Shown here piece after piece: positions 6,526 through 63,351 of a stretch of DNA of 64,000 nucleotides; the stretch's first letter is position 1, and each line of letters opens with the position of its first letter. The notes under the pieces are model-generated. The model searched no databases. It was not told the origin of the DNA and was given only the letters and a program-made list of their open reading frames with translations. The stretch is from a virus (taxonomy: Duplodnaviria; Heunggongvirae; Uroviricota; Caudoviricetes): positions 1 to 64,000 of IMG/VR virus record IMGVR_UViG_3300027749_005140. One strand, written 5' to 3'. Made by a program: the position numbers and the translations under genes.

Positions 6526-7707
6526 CTAAAGAATACCGTCTTTTAGTTGATTTATTAAATGATTAGTAATTTTCTGAATGATTCTACTACTAATTATTTC
6601 TGCTTGTTCTTCGTTAAAATCTGAGAACTTTTTACGTTGTTCATTCAATTCTGATTCTTTGATATCATTTAATTTTTCTTTTAAAGCTTGAATGGTTGGT
6701 GCGAACTTTCTATTTTCTAACCAAGTTATAAATTCACCTTTTATTTCGTCTATGATTGATTCCGCAGCAGGTATATAAAGTTTTCGATTCTCGAGTGTTT
6801 CGTCAGTAATTTGTGATAAGTGATCCAAATGTATTAGTGTGACACCATTTATTTCGTTTACATTTTCATTTACATTTTTCGGAATTGATAAATCTAAAAT
6901 CAATAATGGTTTTTTAATATTAAGTATTTCTTTATCAACTGTTGGTTTTTTCGATCCAGTCGCAACAATAACAACATCTACATTTTGGAGTTCTGATTTC
7001 AAATTTTCATAATCTTTTACAATAACATTTACTTTTTGAGCTAACTTTTCTGCCTTGTACTTTGTTCTATTGATTAAAGTTATGTTATCGTGTTTAGTAT
7101 GTTTTACTAAGTTTTGACAAGTATTTATTCCAATTTTTCCTGTTCCTAAAAGAAGAATATTTTTGTTTGCAATATCTTCGACATTTTTAATGATATATTG
7201 AACAGATGCAAATGCAACTGAAGTAGCCCCACTAGAAAGTTTGGTTTCTGTTTTTATTTTTTTACTGGCTTGTATAACAGAATTCACTAATCTTTCCATA
7301 AAAGAATTTACTAATCCTGATGATTTACTTTGTATAAAAGAAGATTTTAACTGACCGATAATTTCAAAATCACCTAAAATTTGACTATCTAGTCCGGCTC
7401 CTACTCGAAACATATGACTTACTGCGTCATGATCCTTGTATACATAAATAACCTCTTGTAATTCTTCAACAGTACCCTCGCTGTTATTACAAAGTAATTT
7501 GATCAACTCATATGGATGATTTGAAAAACCATATATTTCAGTTCTATTACAGGTTGAAGTAACGATTAGAGATTCAATTCCAGCTGTTTTTGCTTGTAAT
7601 AATAATCTTGATTTAGTATTAGTATCTAAAATAAACTTACCTCTCAGTTCAGCATCAGCATTCTTGTAACTTAATCCGATGGCATAGAAAGAAGTGTGCT
7701 TCGTCAT
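6526..7707 (-). CDS. hemA: glutamyl-tRNA reductase
   Basis: Hallmark STCNRTEIY motif near the N-terminus, LLGTGKIG NADPH-binding glycine-rich motif, length ~390 aa. Confidence 0.8.
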   Translation of the reverse strand: MTKHTSFYAIGLSYKNADAELRGKFILDTNTKSRLLLQAKTAGIESLIVTSTCNRTEIYGFSNHPYELIKLLCNNSEGTVEELQEVIYVYKDHDAVSHMFRVGAGLDSQILGDFEIIGQLKSSFIQSKSSGLVNSFMERLVNSVIQASKKIKTETKLSSGATSVAFASVQYIIKNVEDIANKNILLLGTGKIGINTCQNLVKHTKHDNITLINRTKYKAEKLAQKVNVIVKDYENLKSELQNVDVVIVATGSKKPTVDKEILNIKKPLLILDLSIPKNVNENVNEINGVTLIHLDHLSQITDETLENRKLYIPAAESIIDEIKGEFITWLENRKFAPTIQALKEKLNDIKESELNEQRKKFSDFNEEQAEIISSRIIQKITNHLINQLKDGIL

Positions 7708-8235: not shown

Positions 8236-9324
8236 TTATCCAATCGTTAAGAAGATCTTACGTGATTGTCTATCAACTGATAAAACTTTTACTTTGATGT
8301 CTTGTCCAGACACAAACTTTTTGCCTAATTTCTCCATTTCTGAAGTGTGGATTAGTCCAACTGTTTCATCATCTAAGATTACTAAAGTTCCAAATTGTTT
8401 CACATCTTTCACACGACCATCAATAACTTGACCGTTTTTGATGTTATCCCAAAGTGTTTCTCTTAGAACTTGAGTAAGAATAATCTTCTCTTTAATGATT
8501 TCTTTTACATAGAATTCAATCTCTTGTCCTGGTTTAATTTCGGAGATTCTGTTTTGCCAATCTTCTGTAACATTCGCTTTGTGAATCATACCAGTTAAAC
8601 ACTCGTTAAACTCAACAAAGATACCAAACGGTGTTGTTCCAGTTACTCTACCACCATATAAGTTATTAAACTCAAGATTACCAATTTCTTCTGGAATCAA
8701 TGATTGTAGATACTTTCTACGACTTACGATATAAGTTCCTTCATGTTCTGAGAAAGACTCAATCATTACTTGGAATGTATCACCAACAATTGAAGTTGGG
8801 TCGTAAAGTTTGTTGATACCTGCTAAGGTATTTGGCATAAATCCTGGAAGAGTTACTCCTCCATTTGTGATTTCAACATCGTAACCTGCTGGATTAAGTC
8901 CTCTTACATAAGCGGTTACTGATTCTCCTTCCTCTAAAGATTTAAGGTTTTCGTGAGCTCTTGACTCATATAGTGAAGCAATGCTTCCTTTGATGAAATA
9001 TTGACCGTGATTTATCTCGGTAATTAAAACATCAACCTCATCTCCAGTGTTGCAATTTTTAAGGTACTTTGCCTCATTTGGTTTGTCTTCAACTCTAACA
9101 TCATCTTTGAATCCGTCAACGCTAAATACAAACTGATTAGCCATAATACCTCGGTAGTTAGATCTAACCACATTACCTATTTGTGGTATTTCTAATTTAA
9201 TAGAGCTATAAAGAGCATCTAAGTCTTTATCACTCATATTCTTACCCTTTCTGTAGCTTTTTTCTTCAAATAAAAGCTCAAAGTCTGGGTTTCCTACTTC
9301 TGGGTTTAAAATTTCGTTTGTCAT
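8236..9324 (-). CDS. multi-S1-domain RNA-binding protein (ribosomal protein bS1-like)
   Basis: Repeated S1 OB-fold signatures, e.g. GQVIDGRVKDVKQFGTLVILDDETVGLIHTSEM and GGRVTGTTPFGIFVEF..GMIH. Confidence 0.6.
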   Translation of the reverse strand: MTNEILNPEVGNPDFELLFEEKSYRKGKNMSDKDLDALYSSIKLEIPQIGNVVRSNYRGIMANQFVFSVDGFKDDVRVEDKPNEAKYLKNCNTGDEVDVLITEINHGQYFIKGSIASLYESRAHENLKSLEEGESVTAYVRGLNPAGYDVEITNGGVTLPGFMPNTLAGINKLYDPTSIVGDTFQVMIESFSEHEGTYIVSRRKYLQSLIPEEIGNLEFNNLYGGRVTGTTPFGIFVEFNECLTGMIHKANVTEDWQNRISEIKPGQEIEFYVKEIIKEKIILTQVLRETLWDNIKNGQVIDGRVKDVKQFGTLVILDDETVGLIHTSEMEKLGKKFVSGQDIKVKVLSVDRQSRKIFLTIG

Positions 9325-26837: not shown

Positions 26838-27242
26838 ATGAATTTAAAAGAACAAATTAGCAAAGACTACATGATAGCTTTCAAAGAAAGAAATATCGTA
26901 GCAAAAAACTTACTTTCTGTAGTGAAAGGAGAGATCCAAACTATTGAGAAGAATACTAGTGTTGATTGTCTTTCTGATGTAGAAGTAGTTAAAATTCTTA
27001 ATAAAACTGCAAAGTCTTTAAATGAGGTTATTTCATTAAATGGTGATGAAGAGTCTAAATTACAATTAAAAATTGTAGAAGCTTTTCTTCCAACACCTTT
27101 AACTAAAGAAGATATTGTTATTAAAGTAAATGAACTAGTTGCATCTGGAATTACAAATGTTGGTGGTATTATGAAAGAGTTTGCTACTTTACATGTAGAT
27201 AGAAAAGTTGTATCAGAAGTTATTAAAGAAGTATTAGCATAA
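26838..27242 (+). CDS. GatB/YqeY-domain protein
   Basis: Colinear with YqeY (MNLKEQI..DYM.AFKERN..LLSVVKGEI.....EAFLP..LT.EDI). Confidence 0.6.
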   Translation: MNLKEQISKDYMIAFKERNIVAKNLLSVVKGEIQTIEKNTSVDCLSDVEVVKILNKTAKSLNEVISLNGDEESKLQLKIVEAFLPTPLTKEDIVIKVNELVASGITNVGGIMKEFATLHVDRKVVSEVIKEVLA

Positions 27243-28498
27243 TGAAAAATATAGTAGAAGAATTACAATGGCGTGGGTTAGTACACGATATAATACCCGG
27301 AACGGAGGCTCAACTTTTAAAAGAAGCCACCACCTCTTATATTGGTTTTGATCCAACGTCAGATTCTCTACACATTGGGAGTTTAGTTCCCATCATTCTT
27401 CTAAAACATATGAAGAATTTTGGACACAATCCTATCGCACTTGTTGGTGGGGCTACTGGTATGATCGGTGACCCCTCTGGTAAGTCAAATGAAAGAAATC
27501 TATTAGACGAACAAGAACTTAATAAAAATGTTGAAGGTATCAAAAATACTTTGACCAGATTTTTAGGTGATACTCCTGTAGTAAATAACTACGATTGGAT
27601 GTCAAAGTTTAGTTTCATAGATTTTGTAAGAGACATCGGTAAAAGAATTACTATAAATTACATGTTATCAAAACAATCTGTAAAGAACCGTATCGAAGGT
27701 GAAGGAATGTCTTTCACTGAGTTTACTTACCAGTTGATTCAAGGATACGATTTCTACCATCTAAATAAAGAGTATAACTGTTTATTACAAATGGGTGGTT
27801 CAGATCAATGGGGTAACATTACAACAGGAACTGAACTAATTCATAAAATGAATCCTGGTAGGGAAGCTTTTGCTATGACATGTCCTTTACTAACTAAATC
27901 GGATGGTTCTAAGTTCGGAAAATCTGAAGGAGGTACAAACATATGGTTAGATAAAGATAAGACCTCTGTGTACAAGTTTTACCAATTTTGGATAAGTACT
28001 GATGATAATGATGCAGAGAGATATATTAAAATCTTTACATTTTTAGATAAAGAAACTATTGATAATTTAATAGAAGAGCATAATAAAGCAAAACACTTAT
28101 TTTTGTTACAAAAAACATTAGCAAGAGAAATAACTATTATGGTTCACGGTCAACAAGAGTTTGAAAAAGCAGTAGAAGCTTCTAACATTTTATTCAATGG
28201 TGGAGATTTAAACTTACTTGATGAAGAATTATTCTTAGATATATTTGGTGGAATACCACAAGCGAAAGTTCCTATGGAAGATATTCTTGCTGGTATTACA
28301 ATGACAGACATTCTATTTAAAACAGGTTTCTTAAAATCAAATAATGAAGCTAGAAGAGCTTTAAAAGAAAACTCTGTTGCAGTAAATAAAATAAAGAGAG
28401 AGGAAGACTACATAGTAACAGATGTTGATTTGATAAATGATAAGTTTATCATACTACAAAGAGGTAAGAAAAGTTACTTCTTAGTTGAAGCATCATAG
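27242..28498 (+). CDS. tyrS: tyrosyl-tRNA synthetase
   Basis: YIGFDPTSDSLHIGSLVPI (HIGH region, here HIGS), VGGATGMIGDPSGKS, KFGKS, C-terminal S4-like domain. Confidence 0.85.
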   Translation: MKNIVEELQWRGLVHDIIPGTEAQLLKEATTSYIGFDPTSDSLHIGSLVPIILLKHMKNFGHNPIALVGGATGMIGDPSGKSNERNLLDEQELNKNVEGIKNTLTRFLGDTPVVNNYDWMSKFSFIDFVRDIGKRITINYMLSKQSVKNRIEGEGMSFTEFTYQLIQGYDFYHLNKEYNCLLQMGGSDQWGNITTGTELIHKMNPGREAFAMTCPLLTKSDGSKFGKSEGGTNIWLDKDKTSVYKFYQFWISTDDNDAERYIKIFTFLDKETIDNLIEEHNKAKHLFLLQKTLAREITIMVHGQQEFEKAVEASNILFNGGDLNLLDEELFLDIFGGIPQAKVPMEDILAGITMTDILFKTGFLKSNNEARRALKENSVAVNKIKREEDYIVTDVDLINDKFIILQRGKKSYFLVEAS

Positions 28499-29955: not shown

Positions 29956-30044
29956 GGTGTTTGTAACCGGTAAAGGCAGCCGACCAGATTGTGAATCTGG
30001 AATGAATTAATTTTCTAATGCGGGTTCGAATCCCGTCTCACACC
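29956..30044 (+). tRNA. tRNA-His-like (anticodon GTG) with G-1 and expanded variable region
   Basis: Extra 5' G, anticodon loop ttgtgaa, T-arm gcggg ttcgaat cccgt; 19-nt variable region and two acceptor mismatches. Possibly degenerate. Confidence 0.35.
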
Positions 30045-30062
30045 CTAAATTCTCCCTCTAAA

Positions 30063-30195: not shown

Positions 30196-31233
30196 ATGAT
30201 AAGTTGTAAATTTTGTAAAAAAGTATATATAGGACGTAATAAAAATAAAGATGTTTTAATACATGAGTCCCATTGTATTCTAAATACAGATAGAGTACCA
30301 TATATATGTAATATATGTGATATGGAGTTTGATAAAAGACATTCTTTAATAGGACATAAAAGTCATTGCGGTAATTTAAAAGTTAGGAAAAAACGGATTA
30401 CAAAAGAGAAAGTAATTAAAATACACAAATGTAAATACTGTGATTCAATATTCGAAAATGGTTATAAATTGGGCGGACATGTATCACATTGTGATAGAGA
30501 TCCAGAATATGAAACTAAGAGGAGAAAAATGTGTGATAATATCTCTTTTCTTAATAAAGGAAAGAAATTATCAGATGAAACTAGAAAAAAAATATCAAAT
30601 AGTAGAAGAGAATATTTAAAAAATAATCCAGATAAAGTTCCCTATCTATTAAACCATAGTAGAAATGAATCATATCCTGAGAAATACTTTACTGATGTTT
30701 TTTTAGATAGAAATATTAGTGTAATAAAATCTTACAGAATTGGATTATATGAATTAGATTTTTGTATTTTAGATAAAAAAATAGATATAGAAATCGATGG
30801 TGGTCAACACTATTTAGATAATAAAATTATTGAAAGTGATAAAAGAAGAAATAAATATCTAGAAGATTTAGGTTGGGATATAATTAGAATAAAATGGAGT
30901 GATTATCAATTGTTGGATAAAGATTCTAAAAGAGAATTTATTGATAATATAATCTATTACATAAATGGTCTGGTAAAAACTAAACCAACATTTGAAATAT
31001 TAGATAATAAAAATTATTGTAAATGTGGTATAGAAATATACAAATGTTCTAAAATGTGTTCTAAATGTGATTCATTTAGACAAAGAAAAGTTGAAAGACC
31101 TTCATTAGAGCAAATTTTAAAAGATATAAAAGAAACAAACTATGTCTTGACCGGTAAAAAATATGGTGTTAGTGATAACACTATAAGAAAGTGGATAAGA
31201 CAATATAATGCGGATTTAGCTGAGACGGTTTAG
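30196..31233 (+). CDS. homing-endonuclease-like protein: 3x C2H2 zinc fingers + DUF559/Vsr-like PD-(D/E)xK nuclease + C-terminal HTH
   Basis: CxxC..HxxxH x3; YELDF..IDIEIDGGQHY..D.RR..L..GWDIIRIKW core; stop codon lies inside the D-loop of the following tRNA. Confidence 0.55.
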   Translation: MISCKFCKKVYIGRNKNKDVLIHESHCILNTDRVPYICNICDMEFDKRHSLIGHKSHCGNLKVRKKRITKEKVIKIHKCKYCDSIFENGYKLGGHVSHCDRDPEYETKRRKMCDNISFLNKGKKLSDETRKKISNSRREYLKNNPDKVPYLLNHSRNESYPEKYFTDVFLDRNISVIKSYRIGLYELDFCILDKKIDIEIDGGQHYLDNKIIESDKRRNKYLEDLGWDIIRIKWSDYQLLDKDSKREFIDNIIYYINGLVKTKPTFEILDNKNYCKCGIEIYKCSKMCSKCDSFRQRKVERPSLEQILKDIKETNYVLTGKKYGVSDNTIRKWIRQYNADLAETV

Positions 31234-31281
31234 CGTATGGTTGAAAGCCATAAGAGGTCAATTCGATTTTGACAATCCGCA
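31210..31281 (+). tRNA. tRNA-Phe (anticodon GAA), second gene
   Basis: Acceptor gcggatt/aatccgc, loop ttgaaag, T-arm gtcaa ttcgatt ttgac; 5' 24 nt overlap the endonuclease ORF. Confidence 0.5.
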
Positions 31282-31285
31282 CAAA

Positions 31286-31422
31286 TAGAAAGTAGCTCAA
31301 TTGGTAGAGCACGTAATCATACTTAGTCAGTCTTTCTCTAAGAAACTCTCTTAGTAGCAATGAAATAAGTTACTTCGCTCTGTTAAAGCCGTGGTTGTGG
31401 GTTCGAGTCCCACCTTTCTATC
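31286..31422 (+). tRNA. tRNA-like gene with ~65-nt internal insertion
   Basis: Perfect acceptor tagaaag/ctttcta, canonical D-arm tagctcaattggtagagc and T-arm gtggg ttcgagt cccac, but 87 nt between D- and T-arms. Confidence 0.3.
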
Positions 31423-31464
31423 AGATAAATAAAAACAAAGAATAAAATTTTAATATATAGTAAT

Positions 31465-31542
31465 ATGAAAACAATTATCACAACATCGTCAAGTTCGTCT
31501 AGTCGCTCAAGTAATTTGAGGGAGGTTCTGTTGTGCTCATAA
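31465..31542 (+). CDS. leader peptide 5 (25 aa), Ser/Arg-rich
   Basis: MKTIITTSSSSSSRSSNLREVLLCS; upstream of tRNA-Arg and three tRNA-Ser. Confidence 0.45.
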   Translation: MKTIITTSSSSSSRSSNLREVLLCS

Positions 31543-31564
31543 TTGATATAAAAAATTAGTATGA

Positions 31565-31609
31565 AACCCACAGACTTCAAAGTTTGTGGGTCTTTTGTTT
31601 TTAATTGGT
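31565..31609 (+). terminator. rho-independent terminator/attenuator 5
   Basis: aaacccacagact tcaa agtttgtgggtc + ttttgttttt. Confidence 0.65.
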
Positions 31610-31678
31610 TCCATCGTTTAACGGATAGGATAGGTCGCTACGAACGATCAGGTGGGGGTTCGATTCCCTCTGGAATCA
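31607..31678 (+). tRNA. tRNA-Arg (anticodon ACG)
   Basis: Acceptor ggttcca/tggaatc, anticodon stem ggtcg/cgatc, loop ctacgaa. Confidence 0.5.
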
Positions 31679-31687
31679 CAAATATAT

Positions 31688-31770
31688 GGAGGGTACCGCT
31701 AAGGTAGCAAACTGGGCTTGAACCCCAGGGGTACGGGCAACTGTACGGGTTTCGATTACTCTACCCTCTT
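31688..31770 (+). tRNA. tRNA-Ser (anticodon TGA), class II
   Basis: Acceptor ggagggt/accctct, stem ctggg/cccag, loop cttgaac, long variable arm. Confidence 0.5.
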
Positions 31771-31776
31771 CAGAAT

Positions 31777-31862
31777 AGTGAGTAAGCCTTGATGGTGATA
31801 GGGTCTGCCTGGAAAGCAGTACGTACGTTTAGATGTATAGGGTTCGATTCCCTTGCTCACTA
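31777..31862 (+). tRNA. tRNA-Ser (anticodon GGA), class II
   Basis: Acceptor agtgagt/gctcact, loop ctggaaa, long variable arm, T-loop ttcgatt. Confidence 0.45.
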
Positions 31863-31870
31863 CAAAATAT

Positions 31871-31956
31871 GGAGGATGAATTCACTGGGTAGTGGACGCA
31901 GTTTGCTAAACTGTTGGTGCGTTAAATCGCATTGGGATCGAGACCTACTTCCTCCG
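31871..31956 (+). tRNA. tRNA-Ser (anticodon GCT), class II
   Basis: Acceptor ggaggat/ttcctcc, stem gcagt/actgt, loop ttgctaa, variable hairpin tgcg ttaaat cgca. Confidence 0.4.
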
Positions 31957-38496: not shown

Positions 38497-38598
38497 ATGA
38501 CAACAATTACTAACATAACAATAGCTATCGAAGCCATAGGCGGGTATGAAGCGGGGTATATTATACCATCGGTCAGAAGCGTTATGTCTATAAAGTAA
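38497..38598 (+). CDS. leader peptide 3 (33 aa), Ile/Thr/Gly/Glu/Tyr/Ala-rich
   Basis: MTTITNITIAIEAIGGYEAGYIIPSVRSVMSIK; resembles thr-operon leader; codons ATA, GAA, GGC/GGG, TAT, GCN match the downstream tRNAs. Confidence 0.45.
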   Translation: MTTITNITIAIEAIGGYEAGYIIPSVRSVMSIK

Positions 38599-38627
38599 TG
38601 AGTTGAAAAAAACATTATTATATAACA

Positions 38628-38667
38628 AACCCAATCTGACTTAAAAATCAGATTGGGTTTTTTTATT
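38628..38667 (+). terminator. rho-independent terminator/attenuator 3
   Basis: aacccaatctga cttaaaaa tcagattgggtt + tttttt. Confidence 0.7.
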
Positions 38668-38682
38668 GAATTAAAAGTACAA

Positions 38683-38767: not shown

Positions 38768-38773
38768 CAAAAT

Positions 38774-38841
38774 AAAAGTGACTATGTGCGGGTCGAAAGA
38801 CTTGAAAAGCCAACCGAAATAGTCTAACGTGGTCACTTTTT
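38774..38841 (+). other. extended imperfect hairpin flanked by A-run and T-run
   Basis: aaaagtgactat ... atagtc taacgt ggtcactttttt; not a tRNA (no T-loop). Confidence 0.3.
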
Positions 38842-38848
38842 AGAATAT

Positions 38849-38921
38849 GGTGTATTCGTCTAGTGGTAAGGATTACGCTTTTTCAAAGCGGAGGACGTCG
38901 GTTCGAATCCGACATACACTA
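38849..38921 (+). tRNA. tRNA-Glu (anticodon TTC)
   Basis: Acceptor ggtgtat/atacact, D-arm tcgtctagtggtaaggat (Glu-like), loop ttttcaa, T-arm gtcgg ttcgaat ccgac. Confidence 0.5.
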
Positions 38922-38925
38922 CAAA

Positions 38926-38987
38926 TGTAAGTAGAGCTCCGGTGACTTCTACCTAACCGGGCATTGTGCTTGAGTAGAAGACTTACA
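38926..38987 (+). other. nested hairpin element between tRNA genes
   Basis: tgtaagt..cttctac..gtagaag..acttaca nested inverted repeats. Confidence 0.25.
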
Positions 38988-38991
38988 AAAT

Positions 38992-39066: not shown

Positions 39067-39182
39067 AACAGATACTTGAGTGCAAGCAAGTTATAGTATC
39101 AGTCGTTAGGTCCTTGCAGACAGTGAACGGTGGTCCGAATGTCATTATTCGGTGGTGGATACCAGGCAACTCCATCATATAT

Positions 39183-39502: not shown

Positions 39503-39600
39503 CAGTAGAAGTGGTTTAAGTTATAGAAATCTCTATATCTAAGACGTTAGATGTAAATTTTTATACACCACTTTAATTATAAAGATAGTAGTAATATAAA

Positions 39601-39700
39601 GCGTTACTTCGTATTCAAACGACTATTATAGGTTCGAATCCTATTGTCCGCACAAATAATTAAATTGCGGATATAGTGTAATGGTAGCACAGTAAAATAC
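39601..39700 (+). other. two orphan tRNA halves: a 3' half (T-arm + acceptor 3') lying upstream of a 5' half (acceptor 5' + D-arm); their acceptor strands are mutually complementary
   Basis: ...ataggttcgaatcctat tgtccgc a (39628-39652) and gcggata ta gtgtaatggtagcac (39667-39690); tgtccgc pairs perfectly with gcggata. Confidence 0.25.
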
Positions 39701-39728
39701 GCTTAATAAACTTTCTCTATCTTATTTT

Positions 39729-62471: not shown

Positions 62472-62542
62472 TCTTCTATAGTGAAATGGTATCACGTCTG
62501 ACTGTTAATCAGTTATTCCAGGTTCGAGCCCTGGTGGAAGAG
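62472..62542 (+). tRNA. tRNA-Asn (anticodon GTT)
   Basis: Acceptor tcttcta/tggaaga, D-stem gtga/tcac, loop ctgttaa, T-arm ccagg ttcgagc cctgg. Confidence 0.6.
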
Positions 62543-62551
62543 CAAAAAAAT

Positions 62552-62639
62552 TACTGGGTTGCCATAGCCAGGTCGAATGGTTCGGACTGTTAATCCGATG
62601 AGCATCGCTCCACCGTGGGTTCGAATCCCACCCCAGTAG
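62552..62639 (+). tRNA. tRNA-like, anticodon GTT, with class-II-length variable hairpin (atypical)
   Basis: Perfect acceptor tactggg/cccagta, stem tcgga/tccga, loop ctgttaa, variable hairpin gagc atc gctc, T-arm gtggg ttcgaat cccac. Confidence 0.35.
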
Positions 62640-62647
62640 CAATACAT

Positions 62648-62728
62648 TGGCACATACCAGCCCAACCTGATAAGTTGGAGAACTGTAGCGGTACGTTGAA
62701 AACGTGGGTTCGAATCCCTCTGTGCCAA
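62648..62728 (+). tRNA. tRNA-Ile-like (anticodon GAT) with atypical architecture
   Basis: Acceptor tggcaca/tgtgcca, anticodon arm ccaac ctgataa gttgg (loop identical to bacterial tRNA-Ile); D region too short and 26 nt between anticodon and T arms. Confidence 0.35.
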
Positions 62729-62924: not shown

Positions 62925-62998
62925 ATACCTTGGTCGGTATATCAATTGGTTTAGATTATCACGCTGATACCGTGAAGGTTGCGAGTTCGAGTCTCGCA
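62925..62998 (+). other. degenerate tRNA-like element (T-arm only)
   Basis: gcgag ttcgagt ctcgc T-arm and cggtat/ataccg pairing, but no anticodon arm or acceptor 3' strand. Confidence 0.25.
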
Positions 62999-63007
62999 CA
63001 AAAATAT

Positions 63008-63095
63008 GGCATAGTGTCTGAGTGGTCGAAAGATGCGGTCTGCAAAACCGTAATGATTAAGTTCATCATCGTAGGTTCAAATCCTACCTATGCTT
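63008..63095 (+). tRNA. tRNA-Cys (anticodon GCA) with expanded variable hairpin
   Basis: Acceptor ggcatag/ctatgct, stem gcggt/accgt, loop ctgcaaa, variable atga ttaagt tcat, T-arm gtagg ttcaaat cctac. Confidence 0.5.
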
Positions 63096-63102
63096 CAATA
63101 AT

Positions 63103-63265: not shown

Positions 63266-63346
63266 GCTAGTGTGGCCCAGTGGCGACGGCACTTCCCTTG
63301 TAAGGAAGAAATAAAAACACCGCAGGTTCGAGTCCTGTCACTAGCT
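63266..63346 (+). tRNA. tRNA-Thr (anticodon TGT) with 13-nt A-rich variable region
   Basis: Perfect acceptor gctagtg/cactagc, stem cttcc/ggaag, loop cttgtaa, T-arm gcagg ttcgagt cctgt. Confidence 0.55.
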
Positions 63347-63351
63347 CAACA

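What the first reader, a model, noticed from the sequence alone, without database searches (positions are those of the whole stretch)
31286..31422. tRNA-like gene with perfect acceptor, D and T arms but a ~65-nt insertion in place of a normal anticodon/variable region
The 5' 25 nt (tagaaag ta gctc aattggta gagc) and 3' 25 nt (gtggg ttcgagt cccac ctttcta) are textbook tRNA ends that pair perfectly, but 87 nt lie between them. The insert is too short for a group I intron. It could be a small non-canonical intron, a split or chimeric tRNA, or a tRNA-derived structured ncRNA. Several other tRNAs in this window also carry unusually long variable regions (His-like 29956, GTT-like 62552, Cys 63008, Thr 63266), so small insertions in tRNA genes may be a lineage feature, possibly to evade host anticodon nucleases or processing enzymes.
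Basis: seen in the sequence. Interest (0 to 1): 0.6.

Follow-up and report, generated by a model that had tools for sequence, protein, structure and literature searches.

The report
tRNA-shaped phage Y-RNA chimera
The "tRNA with a 65-base insertion" is a complete asparagine-tRNA look-alike carrying, inside its anticodon stem, the conserved stem-loop of a large and so far uncatalogued family of phage Y-RNA-like small RNAs that sit next to Ro60 protein genes, so it is most likely a Ro60-binding tRNA mimic and not an intron-containing tRNA.

Summary
The tRNA ends are real (31286-31421). The middle does not replace the anticodon arm. Deleting 63 nt (31314-31376) leaves a perfect 74-nt tRNA-Asn(GUU), so the insert lies between nucleotides 28 and 29 of the anticodon stem.

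The insert is a conserved module: helix P1, an internal loop (UUUCU / UAGYAAY), helix P2, then GUUACUUC|G. I found about 100 copies in phage tRNA arrays. All 11 base pairs covary. In almost all copies the two halves of the module flank a "cargo": a permuted tRNA, a whole tRNA, a tRNA body or a short hairpin.

These units lie beside Ro60/TROVE genes on the same strand. Rfam's YrlA (Y RNA-like) model hits them below threshold with the same architecture. A model built only from other phages' units finds the target as the best hit in the window (39.7 bits, E 3e-5).

Best reading: a circularly permuted, tRNA-topology member of a new phage Y-RNA subfamily. Ro60 binding is inferred from synteny, not shown, and the window itself encodes no Ro60. 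Splicing is not excluded, but I found no group I core, no bulge-helix-bulge motif and no ligase. Verdict: new variant of a known kind.

The parts
31286..31313 (+). 5' part of a tRNA-Asn-like body: acceptor 5' strand TAGAAAG (31286-31292), U8 A9, D arm GCTC-AATTGGTA-GAGC (31295-31310), A26, and anticodon-stem nucleotides 27-28, CG (31312-31313)
   Evidence: After removal of the insert, ARAGORN draws a standard cloverleaf.
31314..31320 (+). 5' spacer of the module (TAATCAT); A/U-rich, as in other family members
31321..31325 (+). P1 5' strand (ACTTA); pairs with 31366-31370
   Evidence: Covariation across the family (A1); CM alignment; MFE of the insert alone
31333..31337 (+). Conserved UUUCU, the 5' side of the internal loop; it may pair with AGYAA of the core across a pyrimidine-pyrimidine mismatch
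   Evidence: Required by the scan pattern T[TC][TC]CT in every paired unit, so its apparent invariance in A1 is imposed by design; seen in the real, untrimmed sequences (nearly invariant). The pairing with the core is my inference.
31338..31354 (+). P2 hairpin: CTAAGA (31338-31343), loop AACTC (31344-31348), TCTTAG (31349-31354). In nearly all relatives this helix is open and forms the RNA termini.
   Evidence: 37 different P2 helices in the family. All 6 pairs have changes on both sides. The close relative L003 has CTAA-gaaa-TTAG here.
31355..31361 (+). Conserved core UAGCAAU (family consensus UAGYAAY; UAGCGAU/UAGUGAU in units next to Ro60 genes). Proposed counterpart of the GNCGAA Ro60-binding motif of YrlA.
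   Evidence: The position matches the YrlA model alignment. Ro60 binding itself is inferred.
31366..31370 (+). P1 3' strand (TAAGT)
31371..31376 (+). Near-invariant UACUUC. Together with the preceding U it forms UUAC, which corresponds to the conserved YUAY of YrlA. It links the module to the tRNA body.
   Evidence: Chen et al. 2014 (PMC4201824)
31377..31421 (+). 3' part of the tRNA-Asn-like body: anticodon-stem nucleotides 29-31 GCT, anticodon loop CTGTTAA (anticodon GTT, 31382-31384), AGCCG (39-43), variable loop TGGTT, T arm GTGGG-TTCGAGT-CCCAC (31397-31413), acceptor 3' strand CTTTCTA (31414-31420), discriminator T (31421). No CCA is encoded.
39582..39722 (+). Second unit of the same family in the window, in the usual open form: P2 3' strand AGATAG, TAGTAAT, P1 3' strand AAGCGT, TACTT; then a permuted tRNA-like cargo (anticodon arm with a 6-nt loop, T arm, acceptor 3' strand TGTCCGC, 14-nt linker, acceptor 5' strand GCGGATA, D arm); then AAAAT, P1 5' strand ACGCTT, TTTCT, P2 5' strand CTATCT
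   Evidence: The ortholog in LR745206.1 (L006 29032-29172) has compensatory changes in P1, the acceptor stem and the T stem.

Best explanation
The locus encodes a chimeric small RNA of about 136 nt. It is a full tRNA-Asn(GUU)-like cloverleaf with a 63-nt stem-loop protruding from the anticodon stem between nucleotides 28 and 29, forming a three-way junction.

That stem-loop is the conserved stem module of a large family of phage Y-RNA-like RNAs related to bacterial YrlA. Its layout is P1, an internal loop (UUUCU / UAGYAAY), P2, then UUACUUC|G. In ordinary family members the two strands of the module are the 5' and 3' ends of the RNA, and the tRNA-like domain between them is circularly permuted or embedded. 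The target is the opposite permutation: its ends are at the acceptor stem, as in a real tRNA, and the module is capped by a loop.

Proposed working, step by step:
(1) It is co-transcribed with the tRNA array, three bases after tRNA-Phe (inferred).
(2) RNase P and 3' processing cut it out like a tRNA, and CCA may be added (inferred; precedent: M. smegmatis YrlA).
(3) The module folds as P1/P2 (supported by covariation and a covariance-model hit).
(4) The module binds the phage Ro60 (Rsr/TROVE) ring (inferred from synteny in relatives).
(5) The tRNA-like part then presents a tRNA shape and anticodon loop to tRNA-binding partners, acting as a tether, gate or decoy as proposed for YrlA (speculative).

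On this reading the insert is not removed.
For: - Removing 31314-31376 gives a perfect tRNA-Asn, which matches uninterrupted phage tRNA-Asn genes in one piece.
- The module recurs. My scan found 96 paired instances, 70 of them unique, in phage tRNA arrays. There are 29 different P1 helices and 37 different P2 helices.
- Formal pair count on 48 units: 96% of cells paired, 11 of 11 pairs with changes on both sides, covariation score 0.838 against 0.219 in shuffles and at most 0.19 with slid partners.
- A covariance model built only from 46 open-form units of other phages finds the target as the top hit of the 64-kb window. The match is 31317-31378, 39.7 bits, E 3e-5, with all pairs formed.
- 22 loci fetched by the RNA motif alone encode a Ro60/TROVE+vWA protein (Pfam). 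The nearest units are always on the same strand, mostly 80-640 nt away.
- In the reverse test, 23 of 34 loci fetched by Ro60 protein similarity carry the motif 300-450 nt upstream on the Ro60 strand, and none carry it on the other strand.
- LR745206.1, a relative of the window, has the best Ro60 match among GenBank phages, with two units directly upstream of that gene.
- Rfam YrlA hits four permuted units at 36-38.6 bits. The alignment has the same order: outer stem, inner stem, CUA/UUAC, T arm, acceptor-like stem-loop, D arm.
- L130:5626 and L088:3836, next to Ro60 genes, are open-form Asn(GUU) counterparts broken at the same 28/29 site.
- Other closed forms exist. The module sits in the D arm in L142, L179 and L106, and after nucleotide 7 in L009. 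L142's copy is about 1.3 kb from a Ro60 gene on the same strand.
- Published background: YrlA is a Ro60-bound tRNA mimic encoded within 4 kb of Ro60 on the same strand, and it occurs in phages too. M. smegmatis YrlA is cut by RNase P and receives CCA (PMC4201824). Phage Ro60 binds phage Y-like RNAs (PMC12135203).
Against: - No Ro60 gene lies in the 64-kb window, and the rest of this genome is not available.
- Ro60 binding to this module is inferred from gene neighbourhood only.
- The canonical Ro60 motif GNCGAAN0-1G is absent. The target has UAGCAAU, although Ro60-adjacent relatives have UAGCGAU.
- Rfam YrlA does not reach its gathering score on any unit (at most 38.6 bits against 69). On the target it gives only a misplaced 19-bit match.
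- The tRNA left after removal of the insert is flawless, which is what one would expect of a real interrupted gene.
- Only one near-identical ortholog of the closed Asn form was found (L003), so selection on this particular copy is barely tested.
- The units used for the pair counts were selected with a pairing filter. That inflates the percentage paired, though not the diversity of pair types.
Confidence: 0.6

Rival explanations
1. It is a true interrupted tRNA-Asn gene. The 63-nt module is an intervening sequence that is cut out at CG|UAAUC... and ...UACUUC|GCU. The two halves are then ligated, or left as a nicked but functional tRNA. The module would serve as the recognition signal for a protein endonuclease or act as a small ribozyme. 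The permuted units would mature through circular intermediates, as permuted tRNAs do in the red alga Cyanidioschyzon.
For: Removal of exactly 63 nt gives a perfect cloverleaf. Permuted units also restore perfect 5-bp anticodon stems across the break. G follows UACUUC almost invariably. In complete-tRNA units this position coincides with tRNA nucleotide 1, which would fit a fixed cleavage site.
Against: There is no group I, group II or small-ribozyme match even at E<=10. The junction has no bulge-helix-bulge geometry (inspection). The distance from UACUUC to the inferred exon start varies from -1 to +5 nt between units, which is hard to reconcile with one cleavage rule. The module also flanks 18-36-nt non-tRNA hairpins and acceptor-less bodies, where excision yields nothing useful. 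No RNA ligase or RtcB was found among the 30 window ORFs tested. The window already has a standard tRNA-Asn(GTT) at 62472-62543.
Confidence: 0.15
2. The module is a processing or stability handle recognised by something other than Ro60. One candidate is an RNase III-type processing stem like the leader-trailer helices of rRNA operons; another is a different phage protein. Its nearness to Ro60 genes would then be secondary.
For: P2 plus the UUUCU/AGYAA stretch plus P1 make an irregular helix of about 20 bp, with internal loops like phage RNase III sites (inspection). Open units sit 2-6 nt from the neighbouring tRNAs, so P2 would be a terminal helix after RNase P and RNase Z cuts. Many element-bearing loci show no Ro60 gene within the DNA fetched (47 of 69).
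Against: Strict sequence conservation of the UAGYAAY and GUUACUUCG loops across very different phages argues for a dedicated partner. The only non-endonuclease protein family recurrently adjacent and co-oriented is Ro60. The flanks fetched were short, so the absence of Ro60 in them is weak evidence.
Confidence: 0.12
3. It is a dead gene: a tRNA-Asn inactivated by recombination with, or insertion of, a Y-RNA module, possibly connected with the homing-endonuclease-like ORF just upstream. It would have no function of its own.
For: Closed forms are rare: 1 of 96 in the strict scan. A Zn-finger/NUMOD3-like/DUF559 endonuclease gene ends 50 nt upstream, and such genes crowd these arrays. The discriminator is U73, whereas bacterial tRNA-Asn normally has G73 (my recollection of E. 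coli identity rules).
Against: Every helix of both the tRNA and the module is intact. The relative L003 differs by a 5-nt deletion that converts P2 from 6 bp with a 5-nt loop to 4 bp with a GAAA loop, so the hairpin is kept. Independent closed forms at other tRNA positions exist in unrelated contigs, one of them near Ro60.
Confidence: 0.08
4. ARAGORN's intron model is correct: tRNA-Met/Ile2(CAT) with a 56-nt intron at the canonical 37/38 position.
For: ARAGORN -i reports it, and the intron position is the canonical one.
Against: That model needs a mismatched anticodon stem with a G-U pair and an unstructured 13-nt variable loop. The Asn(GTT) solution has six perfect pairs. The family comparison also places the module boundaries elsewhere.
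Confidence: 0.02

Closest known systems
YrlA, bacterial/phage Y RNA-like RNA (Rfam RF02553; Chen et al. 2014, PMC4201824)
   Same: It has a tRNA-like domain with canonical D and T arms joined to a long stem. A conserved YUAY (here UUAC) follows the stem. A conserved single-stranded motif lies on the 5' strand of the stem. Family members are encoded next to Ro60 on the same strand, are often multi-copy, and are embedded among tRNAs. The acceptor-like stem can be opened by RNase P. Rfam YrlA aligns to permuted family members with the same order of elements.
   Different: The stem motif is UAGYAAY, not GNCGAAN0-1G. A real 5-bp anticodon stem with a 7-nt loop and anticodon is kept as a side branch. 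The target has the reverse circular permutation: its termini are at the acceptor stem and the Ro-type stem is capped by a loop. Scores stay below the Rfam threshold. The family is essentially phage-borne.
Deinococcus radiodurans Yrn1 and Thermus phage phiLo Yrl1/Yrl2
   Same: These are Y RNAs with a stem-bulge-stem Ro60 site. Yrn1 has an 'anticodon arm' with a 5-bp stem and a 6-nt loop, like the window's second unit at 39.6 kb. The phiLo RNAs are phage-encoded and bind phage Ro60.
   Different: They carry the CGAA motif and have ordinary linear topology with termini in the stem. None is described as a full tRNA with the module inside it.
Archaeal/eukaryotic tRNA introns, split tRNAs and permuted tRNAs (bulge-helix-bulge system)
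   Same: One conserved RNA motif occurs at several positions of tRNA genes and also joins permuted halves. Removing it restores a perfect tRNA.
   Different: There is no bulge-helix-bulge geometry and no EndA-type enzyme context. The motif is about 55-60 nt with conserved sequence. It also flanks intact tRNAs and non-tRNA hairpins, and it is associated with Ro60.
Bacterial group I introns in tRNA anticodon loops
   Same: Both interrupt a bacterial-type tRNA gene.
   Different: At 63 nt the insert is far below group I size. It lies in the anticodon stem (28/29), not the loop. There is no Rfam intron hit.
Two-piece (circularly permuted) tmRNA genes
   Same: They are a precedent for circular permutation of a tRNA-like RNA gene, with the same fold made from different termini.
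   Different: The target has no mRNA-like tag region and no G3:U70 (it has G3-C70). ARAGORN's tmRNA search gave no credible call.

Membership tests
Phage Y-RNA-like stem-module family defined here | P1 and P2 helices bracketing UUUCU and UAGYAAY, followed by UUACUUC|G | tested here: met
   All blocks are present at 31321-31376. CM R1, trained without the window or its close relatives, gives 39.7 bits, E 3e-5, over the full model length with 11 of 11 pairs formed.
Phage Y-RNA-like stem-module family defined here | The module is attached to a tRNA-like domain inside a phage tRNA array | tested here: met
   tRNA-Asn-like body, lying between tRNA-Phe 31210-31282 and tRNA-Arg 31607-31679.
YrlA / Y RNA (Rfam RF02553) | Reaches the Rfam gathering score (69 bits) | tested here: not met
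   The target region gives only a 19-bit, E 0.37, misplaced match at 31238-31336. The best family members reach 36-38.6 bits.
YrlA / Y RNA (Rfam RF02553) | Encoded within about 4 kb of a Ro60/TROVE gene on the same strand | tested here: not met
   No Ro60-like ORF in the 64-kb window. The feature is met for the family: 22 motif-fetched loci, 23 of 34 Ro60-fetched loci, and LR745206.1, a relative of the window.
YrlA / Y RNA (Rfam RF02553) | [quoted passage not shown] | tested here: not met
   The target has UAGCAAU at the equivalent place. Ro60-adjacent relatives have UAGCGAU/UAGUGAU/UGGUGAU.
YrlA / Y RNA (Rfam RF02553) | tRNA-like domain with conserved D and T arms, and YUAY after the stem | tested here: met
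   D arm GCTCAATTGGTAGAGC, T arm GTGGGTTCGAGTCCCAC, and UUAC at 31370-31373.
YrlA / Y RNA (Rfam RF02553) | 5' and 3' ends of the RNA pair to form the Ro60-binding stem | tested here: not met
   In the target the stem is internal and capped by the loop 31344-31348. The gene's ends are the tRNA acceptor strands.
YrlA / Y RNA (Rfam RF02553) | Physically bound by Ro60/Rsr | not testable with these tools
   Needs immunoprecipitation or a gel-shift assay.
Intron-containing tRNA (archaeal/eukaryotic type) | Bulge-helix-bulge motif at the exon-intron junctions | tested here: not met
   By inspection: the only 4-bp helix near the junctions (G28-UAA / UUAC) places the 5' junction inside the helix, not in a 3-nt bulge. 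No dedicated BHB program was available.
Intron-containing tRNA (bacterial type) | Group I catalytic core within the insert | tested here: not met
   No intron or ribozyme family at E<=10 in 31150-31950. At 63 nt the insert is too short.
Intron-containing tRNA (any type) | Deletion of the insert restores a canonical cloverleaf | tested here: met
   74-nt tRNA-Asn(gtt), matching intronless phage tRNA-Asn genes in one piece.
Intron-containing tRNA (any type) | A spliced mature RNA exists | not testable with these tools
   Needs RNA-seq or a northern blot.
tmRNA | G3:U70 alanine identity pair, tag reading frame, degenerate D arm | tested here: not met
   G3-C70 and a perfect D arm. Rfam tmRNA matches only the T arm at 13 bits. 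ARAGORN -m gives only spurious permuted calls elsewhere.

The most novel reading that the evidence does not exclude
The module is a portable RNA handle that can be plugged into any break of a tRNA backbone: the acceptor end, the D arm, position 7/8, position 28/29 or the variable region. Closed forms like this one would then be real, chargeable tRNAs that the phage physically couples to Ro60. An alternative version is that the handle is a new excision signal, the bacterial-virus analogue of the archaeal bulge-helix-bulge system, giving spliced or circularised tRNAs. Either way, phage tRNA arrays would hold a hidden layer of Ro60-linked tRNA biology, perhaps directed against host anticodon nucleases. 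The cargo anticodon loops include Lys, Arg, Tyr, Asn, Gln and Glu types, which are typical nuclease targets.
Probability: 0.12. Interest if true: 0.9.

Novelty: new variant of a known kind. Interest (0 to 1): 0.62.

Why it matters
Y RNAs that mimic tRNA are known from bacteria and a few phages, but their role is still unclear. This finding points to three things.

- A much larger, phage-borne subfamily with its own conserved stem motif. Rfam does not capture it, and genome annotators either miss it or label it as odd tRNAs. Examples are the 'tRNA-Tyr' and 'tRNA-Lys' upstream of Ro60 in a crAss-like phage.
- Remarkable topological freedom. The same module is joined to tRNA-like bodies at five or more different positions and in both circular permutations.
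- Members, like the target, that keep every feature of a decodable tRNA, including an anticodon loop and free acceptor ends.

This gives concrete, testable constructs for asking what Ro60-Y RNA particles do during infection. It also warns that 'intron-containing' or 'permuted' tRNA calls in phage genomes may be Y RNAs.

Tried and rejected
- ARAGORN's tRNA-Met(CAT) with a 56-nt intron. Rejected: poor anticodon stem and a 13-nt variable loop, against a perfect Asn solution.
- Mini-tmRNA. The insert contains UAGUA-GCA-AUG-AAA-UAA, reminiscent of a resume codon. Rejected: G3-C70, an intact D arm, and the family context.
- Known small ribozymes (hammerhead, hairpin, twister, pistol, hatchet, HDV-like). 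No Rfam hit, and manual comparison of the conserved loops with the hammerhead and hairpin cores failed on both strands.
- Bulge-helix-bulge motif. The geometry does not fit.
- IS200/IS605-type DNA element (TTAC target). Cannot explain permuted units with compensatory RNA pairs.
- The neighbouring ORF 30196-31233 as a splicing endonuclease. Its homologs recur in these arrays. However, they carry NUMOD3-like repeats and cluster with GIY-YIG and HNH proteins, so they look like homing endonucleases.
- Promoter/terminator reading of the conserved leader and trailer. Rejected because P1 and P2 covary.
- Scan of bacterial genomes. It returned almost only chance matches, so it says little beyond the fact that the family is rare in cellular genomes.
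- Xanthomonas phage XbC2 / Erwinia phage Kaldavass 122-nt 'tRNA-Lys', with a 49-nt insert at the same 28/29 site. It shares the TAGAAA spacer, a GCAGCAAC core-like stretch and TACTTC, but lacks P1 and UUUCU. These phages were not among the Ro60 hits listed, so its relation is unresolved.
- Four literature searches for short introns or permuted tRNAs in phages found nothing.
Full report
**1. The observation**

At 31286-31421 the + strand carries textbook tRNA ends. These are acceptor strands TAGAAAG and CTTTCTA, a D arm GCTC-AATTGGTA-GAGC and a T arm GTGGG-TTCGAGT-CCCAC. ARAGORN (29 tRNAs in the window) and Rfam at gathering threshold (28 tRNA matches) both skip the locus.

With introns allowed, ARAGORN proposes tRNA-Met(CAT) with a 56-nt intron. 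That model has a mismatched anticodon stem and a 13-nt variable loop.

A 122-nt 'tRNA-Lys' annotated in Xanthomonas phage XbC2 showed me the right reading. The anticodon arm is present but split. Deleting 31314-31376 (63 nt) joins ...GAGC-A-CG to GCT-CTGTTAA-AGCCG-TGGTT. ARAGORN then draws a flawless 74-nt tRNA-Asn(GTT). This sequence aligns in one piece to uninterrupted phage tRNA-Asn genes at 82-86% identity.

So the insert lies between nucleotides 28 and 29, in the 5' strand of the anticodon stem. It does not stand 'in place of' the anticodon and variable region.

**2. The insert is a recurrent, structured module**

The window is related to the 635-642-kb uncultured phages LR745206.1 and LR756502.1. 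One near-identical relative was found (L003). It carries the same insert with a 5-nt deletion that turns the distal hairpin from CTAAGA-aactc-TCTTAG into CTAA-gaaa-TTAG.

A second copy of the insert's motifs lies at 39582-39722. There the two halves are swapped around a tRNA-like sequence whose 3' half precedes its 5' half. Its ortholog in LR745206.1 keeps every helix through compensatory changes:
- P1: AAGCGT/ACGCTT against GAGAAGTGT/ACACTTCTC.
- Acceptor stem: GCGGATA/TGTCCGC against GTCGGTG/CACCGGC.
- T stem: also changed on both sides.

Two pattern scans of IMG/VR plus my own pairing filter gave 96 paired instances, 70 of them unique, almost all inside phage tRNA arrays.

The consensus layout is: A-rich spacer, P1 5' strand, UUUCU, P2 5' strand, [loop or RNA ends], P2 3' strand, UAGYAAY, P1 3' strand, UUACUUC|G.

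There are 29 distinct P1 helices and 37 distinct P2 helices. On a block alignment of 48 units:
- 96% of cells are paired.
- All 11 pairs show changes on both sides.
- The covariation score is 0.838, against 0.219 ± 0.020 in shuffles and at most 0.19 with slid partners.

Caveat: the units were chosen with a pairing filter, and the blocks omit the variable joining regions. UUUCU, the GAAA loop and UACUUCG were written into that block alignment as fixed placeholders, so only the helix columns and the core are informative there.

No Rfam family matches the module.

**3. What the module normally flanks**

In 95 of the 96 paired instances the module is 'open'. Its 3' half lies upstream and its 5' half downstream of a cargo. 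The cargos are:
- 18-36-nt hairpin-like sequences.
- 57-65-nt tRNA bodies without acceptor strands.
- Complete, normally ordered tRNAs whose first nucleotide is the G (or the preceding C) of UACUUC|G.
- tRNA-like domains that use CUUCG as an acceptor strand.
- Circularly permuted tRNAs broken at 28/29, at 29/30 or in the variable region.

Open units sit 2-6 nt from the flanking tRNAs. After RNase P and 3' processing, P2 would therefore be the terminal helix.

Closed forms like the target are rare but not unique. The module sits in the D arm in L142, L179 and L106, and after nucleotide 7 in L009.

**4. The link to Ro60 and Y RNAs**

I clustered the ORFs within 4 kb of units. This gave homing-endonuclease-like families and one family of 513-548-aa proteins present in 18 loci. 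Pfam identifies that family as TROVE plus Ro60-type vWA, that is, Ro60/Rsr orthologs.

Across all motif-fetched loci, 22 encode such a protein. The nearest units are always on the same strand, mostly 80-640 nt away, and often on both sides of the gene.

Rfam's YrlA model (Y RNA-like) hits four permuted units at 36-38.6 bits, below its 69-bit threshold. The alignment matches element by element: outer stem to P2, inner stem to P1, CUA to UUAC, then T arm, acceptor-like stem-loop and D arm.

Published work describes YrlA as follows (Chen et al. 2014, PMC4201824):
- It is a Ro60-bound RNA with a tRNA-like domain.
- It is encoded within 4 kb of Ro60 on the same strand, in 254 bacteria and 22 phages.
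- It has a conserved motif on the 5' strand of the stem and a conserved YUAY after it.
- M. smegmatis YrlA is cut by RNase P in its acceptor-like stem-loop and receives CCA.
- Companion 'YrlB' RNAs are long hairpins, which matches the short-cargo units here.
- Yrn1 has a 6-nt 'anticodon loop', as does the window's 39.6-kb unit.

A 2025 study shows that a phage Ro60 binds phage Y-like RNAs (PMC12135203).

Independent tests of the link:
- The best GenBank phage match to a unit-adjacent Ro60 is LR745206.1, the window's relative (32% identity, 91% coverage, E 4e-57). Two module units lie 60-450 nt upstream of that gene on the same strand.
- Of 34 loci fetched purely by Ro60 protein similarity, 23 carry the motif 300-450 nt upstream on the Ro60 strand, and none carry it on the opposite strand. 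Their core reads UAGCGAU or UAGUGAU, which contains the CGA of the canonical GNCGAA.
- In the crAss-like phage csAssE-Sib, three units (core UGGUGAU/G, then GUUACUUCG) directly precede the 'Ro sixty-related protein' gene. Two of them are annotated tRNA-Tyr and tRNA-Lys.

A scan of bacterial genomes returned almost only chance matches, with one real unit among 120 rows. The family is therefore essentially phage-borne.

**5. Membership of the target**

I built a covariance model from 46 open-form units of other phages, re-joined as hairpins. The window, L003 and L017 were left out. I then searched the whole window with filters off.

The target is the best hit: 31317-31378, 39.7 bits, E 3e-5, full model length, all 11 pairs formed. 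The second hit is the 3' half of the 39.6-kb unit.

L130:5626 and L088:3836, next to Ro60 genes, are open-form Asn(GUU) units broken at the same 28/29 site and with similar D and T arms. The target is thus the same design with the other circular permutation.

The insert alone folds into P1 and P2 (-8.8 kcal/mol). The full chimera with tRNA arms enforced keeps them (-28.3 kcal/mol, against an unconstrained MFE of -30.6).

**6. How it most likely works**

Shown:
- The tRNA-Asn-like body.
- The module and its helices.
- Family membership.
- Association of the family with Ro60.

Inferred:
- Co-transcription with the array and tRNA-like end processing.
- Possible CCA addition.
- Ro60 binding through the UAGYAAY stem.
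- A tether, gate or decoy role for the tRNA part.

I put 0.6 on this package. Membership in the module family alone I would put near 0.9.

Points against:
- No Ro60 gene in the window.
- The non-canonical stem motif.
- Sub-threshold Rfam scores.
- Only one close ortholog of this particular copy.

**7. Rivals**

*True splicing (0.15).* This is attractive because the excised product is perfect. It lacks any recognisable catalytic or recognition system. It also does not explain units with whole tRNAs or hairpins, or the variable offset between UACUUC and the inferred exon start.

*A non-Ro60 processing handle (0.12).* The irregular 20-bp helix resembles an RNase III site, but the strictly conserved loops argue for a dedicated partner.

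*A dead gene (0.08).* Closed forms are rare and a homing-endonuclease-like gene lies just upstream, but all helices are intact.

*ARAGORN's Met model (0.02).* It is the weaker fit.

The upstream ORF 30196-31233 (Zn fingers, NUMOD3-like repeat, DUF559/RAP-like PD-(D/E)XK domain, HTH) recurs in these arrays. It groups with GIY-YIG and HNH homing endonucleases, so I read it as a mobile endonuclease and not a splicing enzyme.

**8. Novelty**

tRNA-mimicking Y RNAs next to Ro60 are known. Three things are new:
- A large phage subfamily with its own stem motif, not captured by Rfam.
- Retention of a genuine anticodon arm as a side branch.
- Free choice of attachment point and permutation, including tRNA-topology members such as the target.

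Four literature searches found no description of such tRNA interruptions in phages. Verdict: new variant of a known kind; interest 0.62.

Noticed in passing
window 31463-31600 and 38498-38668: Two mini-ORFs, each followed by an intrinsic terminator, lie directly upstream of tRNA sub-clusters. Their codons match the tRNAs downstream. MKTIITTSSSSSSRSSNLREVLLCS* (9 Ser and 2 Arg codons) precedes tRNA-Arg(ACG), Ser(TGA) and Ser(GGA). MTTITNITIAIEAIGGYEAGYIIPSVRSVMSIK* (8 Ile, mostly ATA, plus Gly, Glu, Tyr and Ala codons) precedes tRNA-Tyr, three tRNA-Glu, Ile(TAT), two tRNA-Gly and Ala. This looks like ribosome-mediated attenuation of tRNA operons. The first ORF is conserved in LR756502.1 and LR745206.1. 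It gives a weak Rfam His_leader hit (25.6 bits), and the terminator at 31566-31591 is confirmed.
   Followed up: partly
window 39582-39722: A second, open-form unit of the same Y-RNA-like family. Its cargo is a circularly permuted tRNA-like sequence with a 6-nt 'anticodon loop' (ATTCAA). Orthologs in L006, L017, L159, L171, L141, L096 and L168 carry 7-nt loops with GCA, TGG, CAT and other anticodons.
   Followed up: yes
window 30196-31233: ORF with C2H2-like zinc fingers, a NUMOD3-like motif, a DUF559/REase_MTES_1575/RAP-like PD-(D/E)XK domain and a C-terminal HTH. It ends inside tRNA-Phe, just upstream of the target. Homologs recur in other arrays that carry the module (L025, L033, L044, L048, L064). 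It is probably a free-standing homing endonuclease.
   Followed up: partly
window 62938-62997: tRNA-Ile(GAT)-like sequence with D, anticodon and T arms but no 3' acceptor strand (Rfam tRNA partial match, model positions 8-63, 37 bits). It has no module motifs in its flanks.
   Followed up: no
window 29957-30045, 62552-62640, 63008-63096, 63266-63347: tRNAs with His, Asn, Cys and Thr anticodons that carry class-II-like long variable arms or loops and long D loops (82-89 nt). They do not contain the Y-RNA module, so they are a separate oddity of this tRNA set.
   Followed up: partly
window 31689-31768, 31778-31861, 62648-62728: tRNA-like genes seen only by Rfam or by relaxed ARAGORN settings (Ser(TGA)-like and Ser(GGA)-like, among others). 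They are missed by default ARAGORN.
   Followed up: no
L004 1500-1621 (Xanthomonas phage XbC2 OP292654.1 307294-307415); also Erwinia phage Kaldavass PQ464595.1 76217-76335: Annotated 122-nt tRNA-Lys(TTT) with a 49-nt insert at the same 28/29 position. It shares the TAGAAA spacer, a GCAGCAAC core-like stretch and TACTTC, but lacks P1 and UUUCU. These phages were not among the Ro60 hits listed. It may be a reduced relative of the module.
   Followed up: partly
L338 1990-2480 (phage csAssE-Sib OR575929.1 about 72580-73070): The annotated tRNA-Tyr and tRNA-Lys just upstream of the 'Ro sixty-related protein' gene are embedded in module leader/trailer pairs, and a third, permuted unit precedes them. 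Some GenBank 'tRNAs' are therefore probably Y-RNA-like units.
   Followed up: partly
L047 591-1077: A GOLLD RNA (Rfam, 160 bits) lies about 600 nt upstream of a short-cargo module unit (L047 about 1700-1790).
   Followed up: no
window 38770-38850, 38925-38990, 39068-39180: GC-richer spacers between tRNA genes with obvious self-complementarity. They may be further structured RNAs in the array.
   Followed up: no
window 6526-7707, 8236-9324, 26838-28498: Genes related to translation and tRNA metabolism in a phage: glutamyl-tRNA reductase, an S1-domain protein, a YqeY-like protein and a tyrosyl-tRNA synthetase.
   Followed up: no
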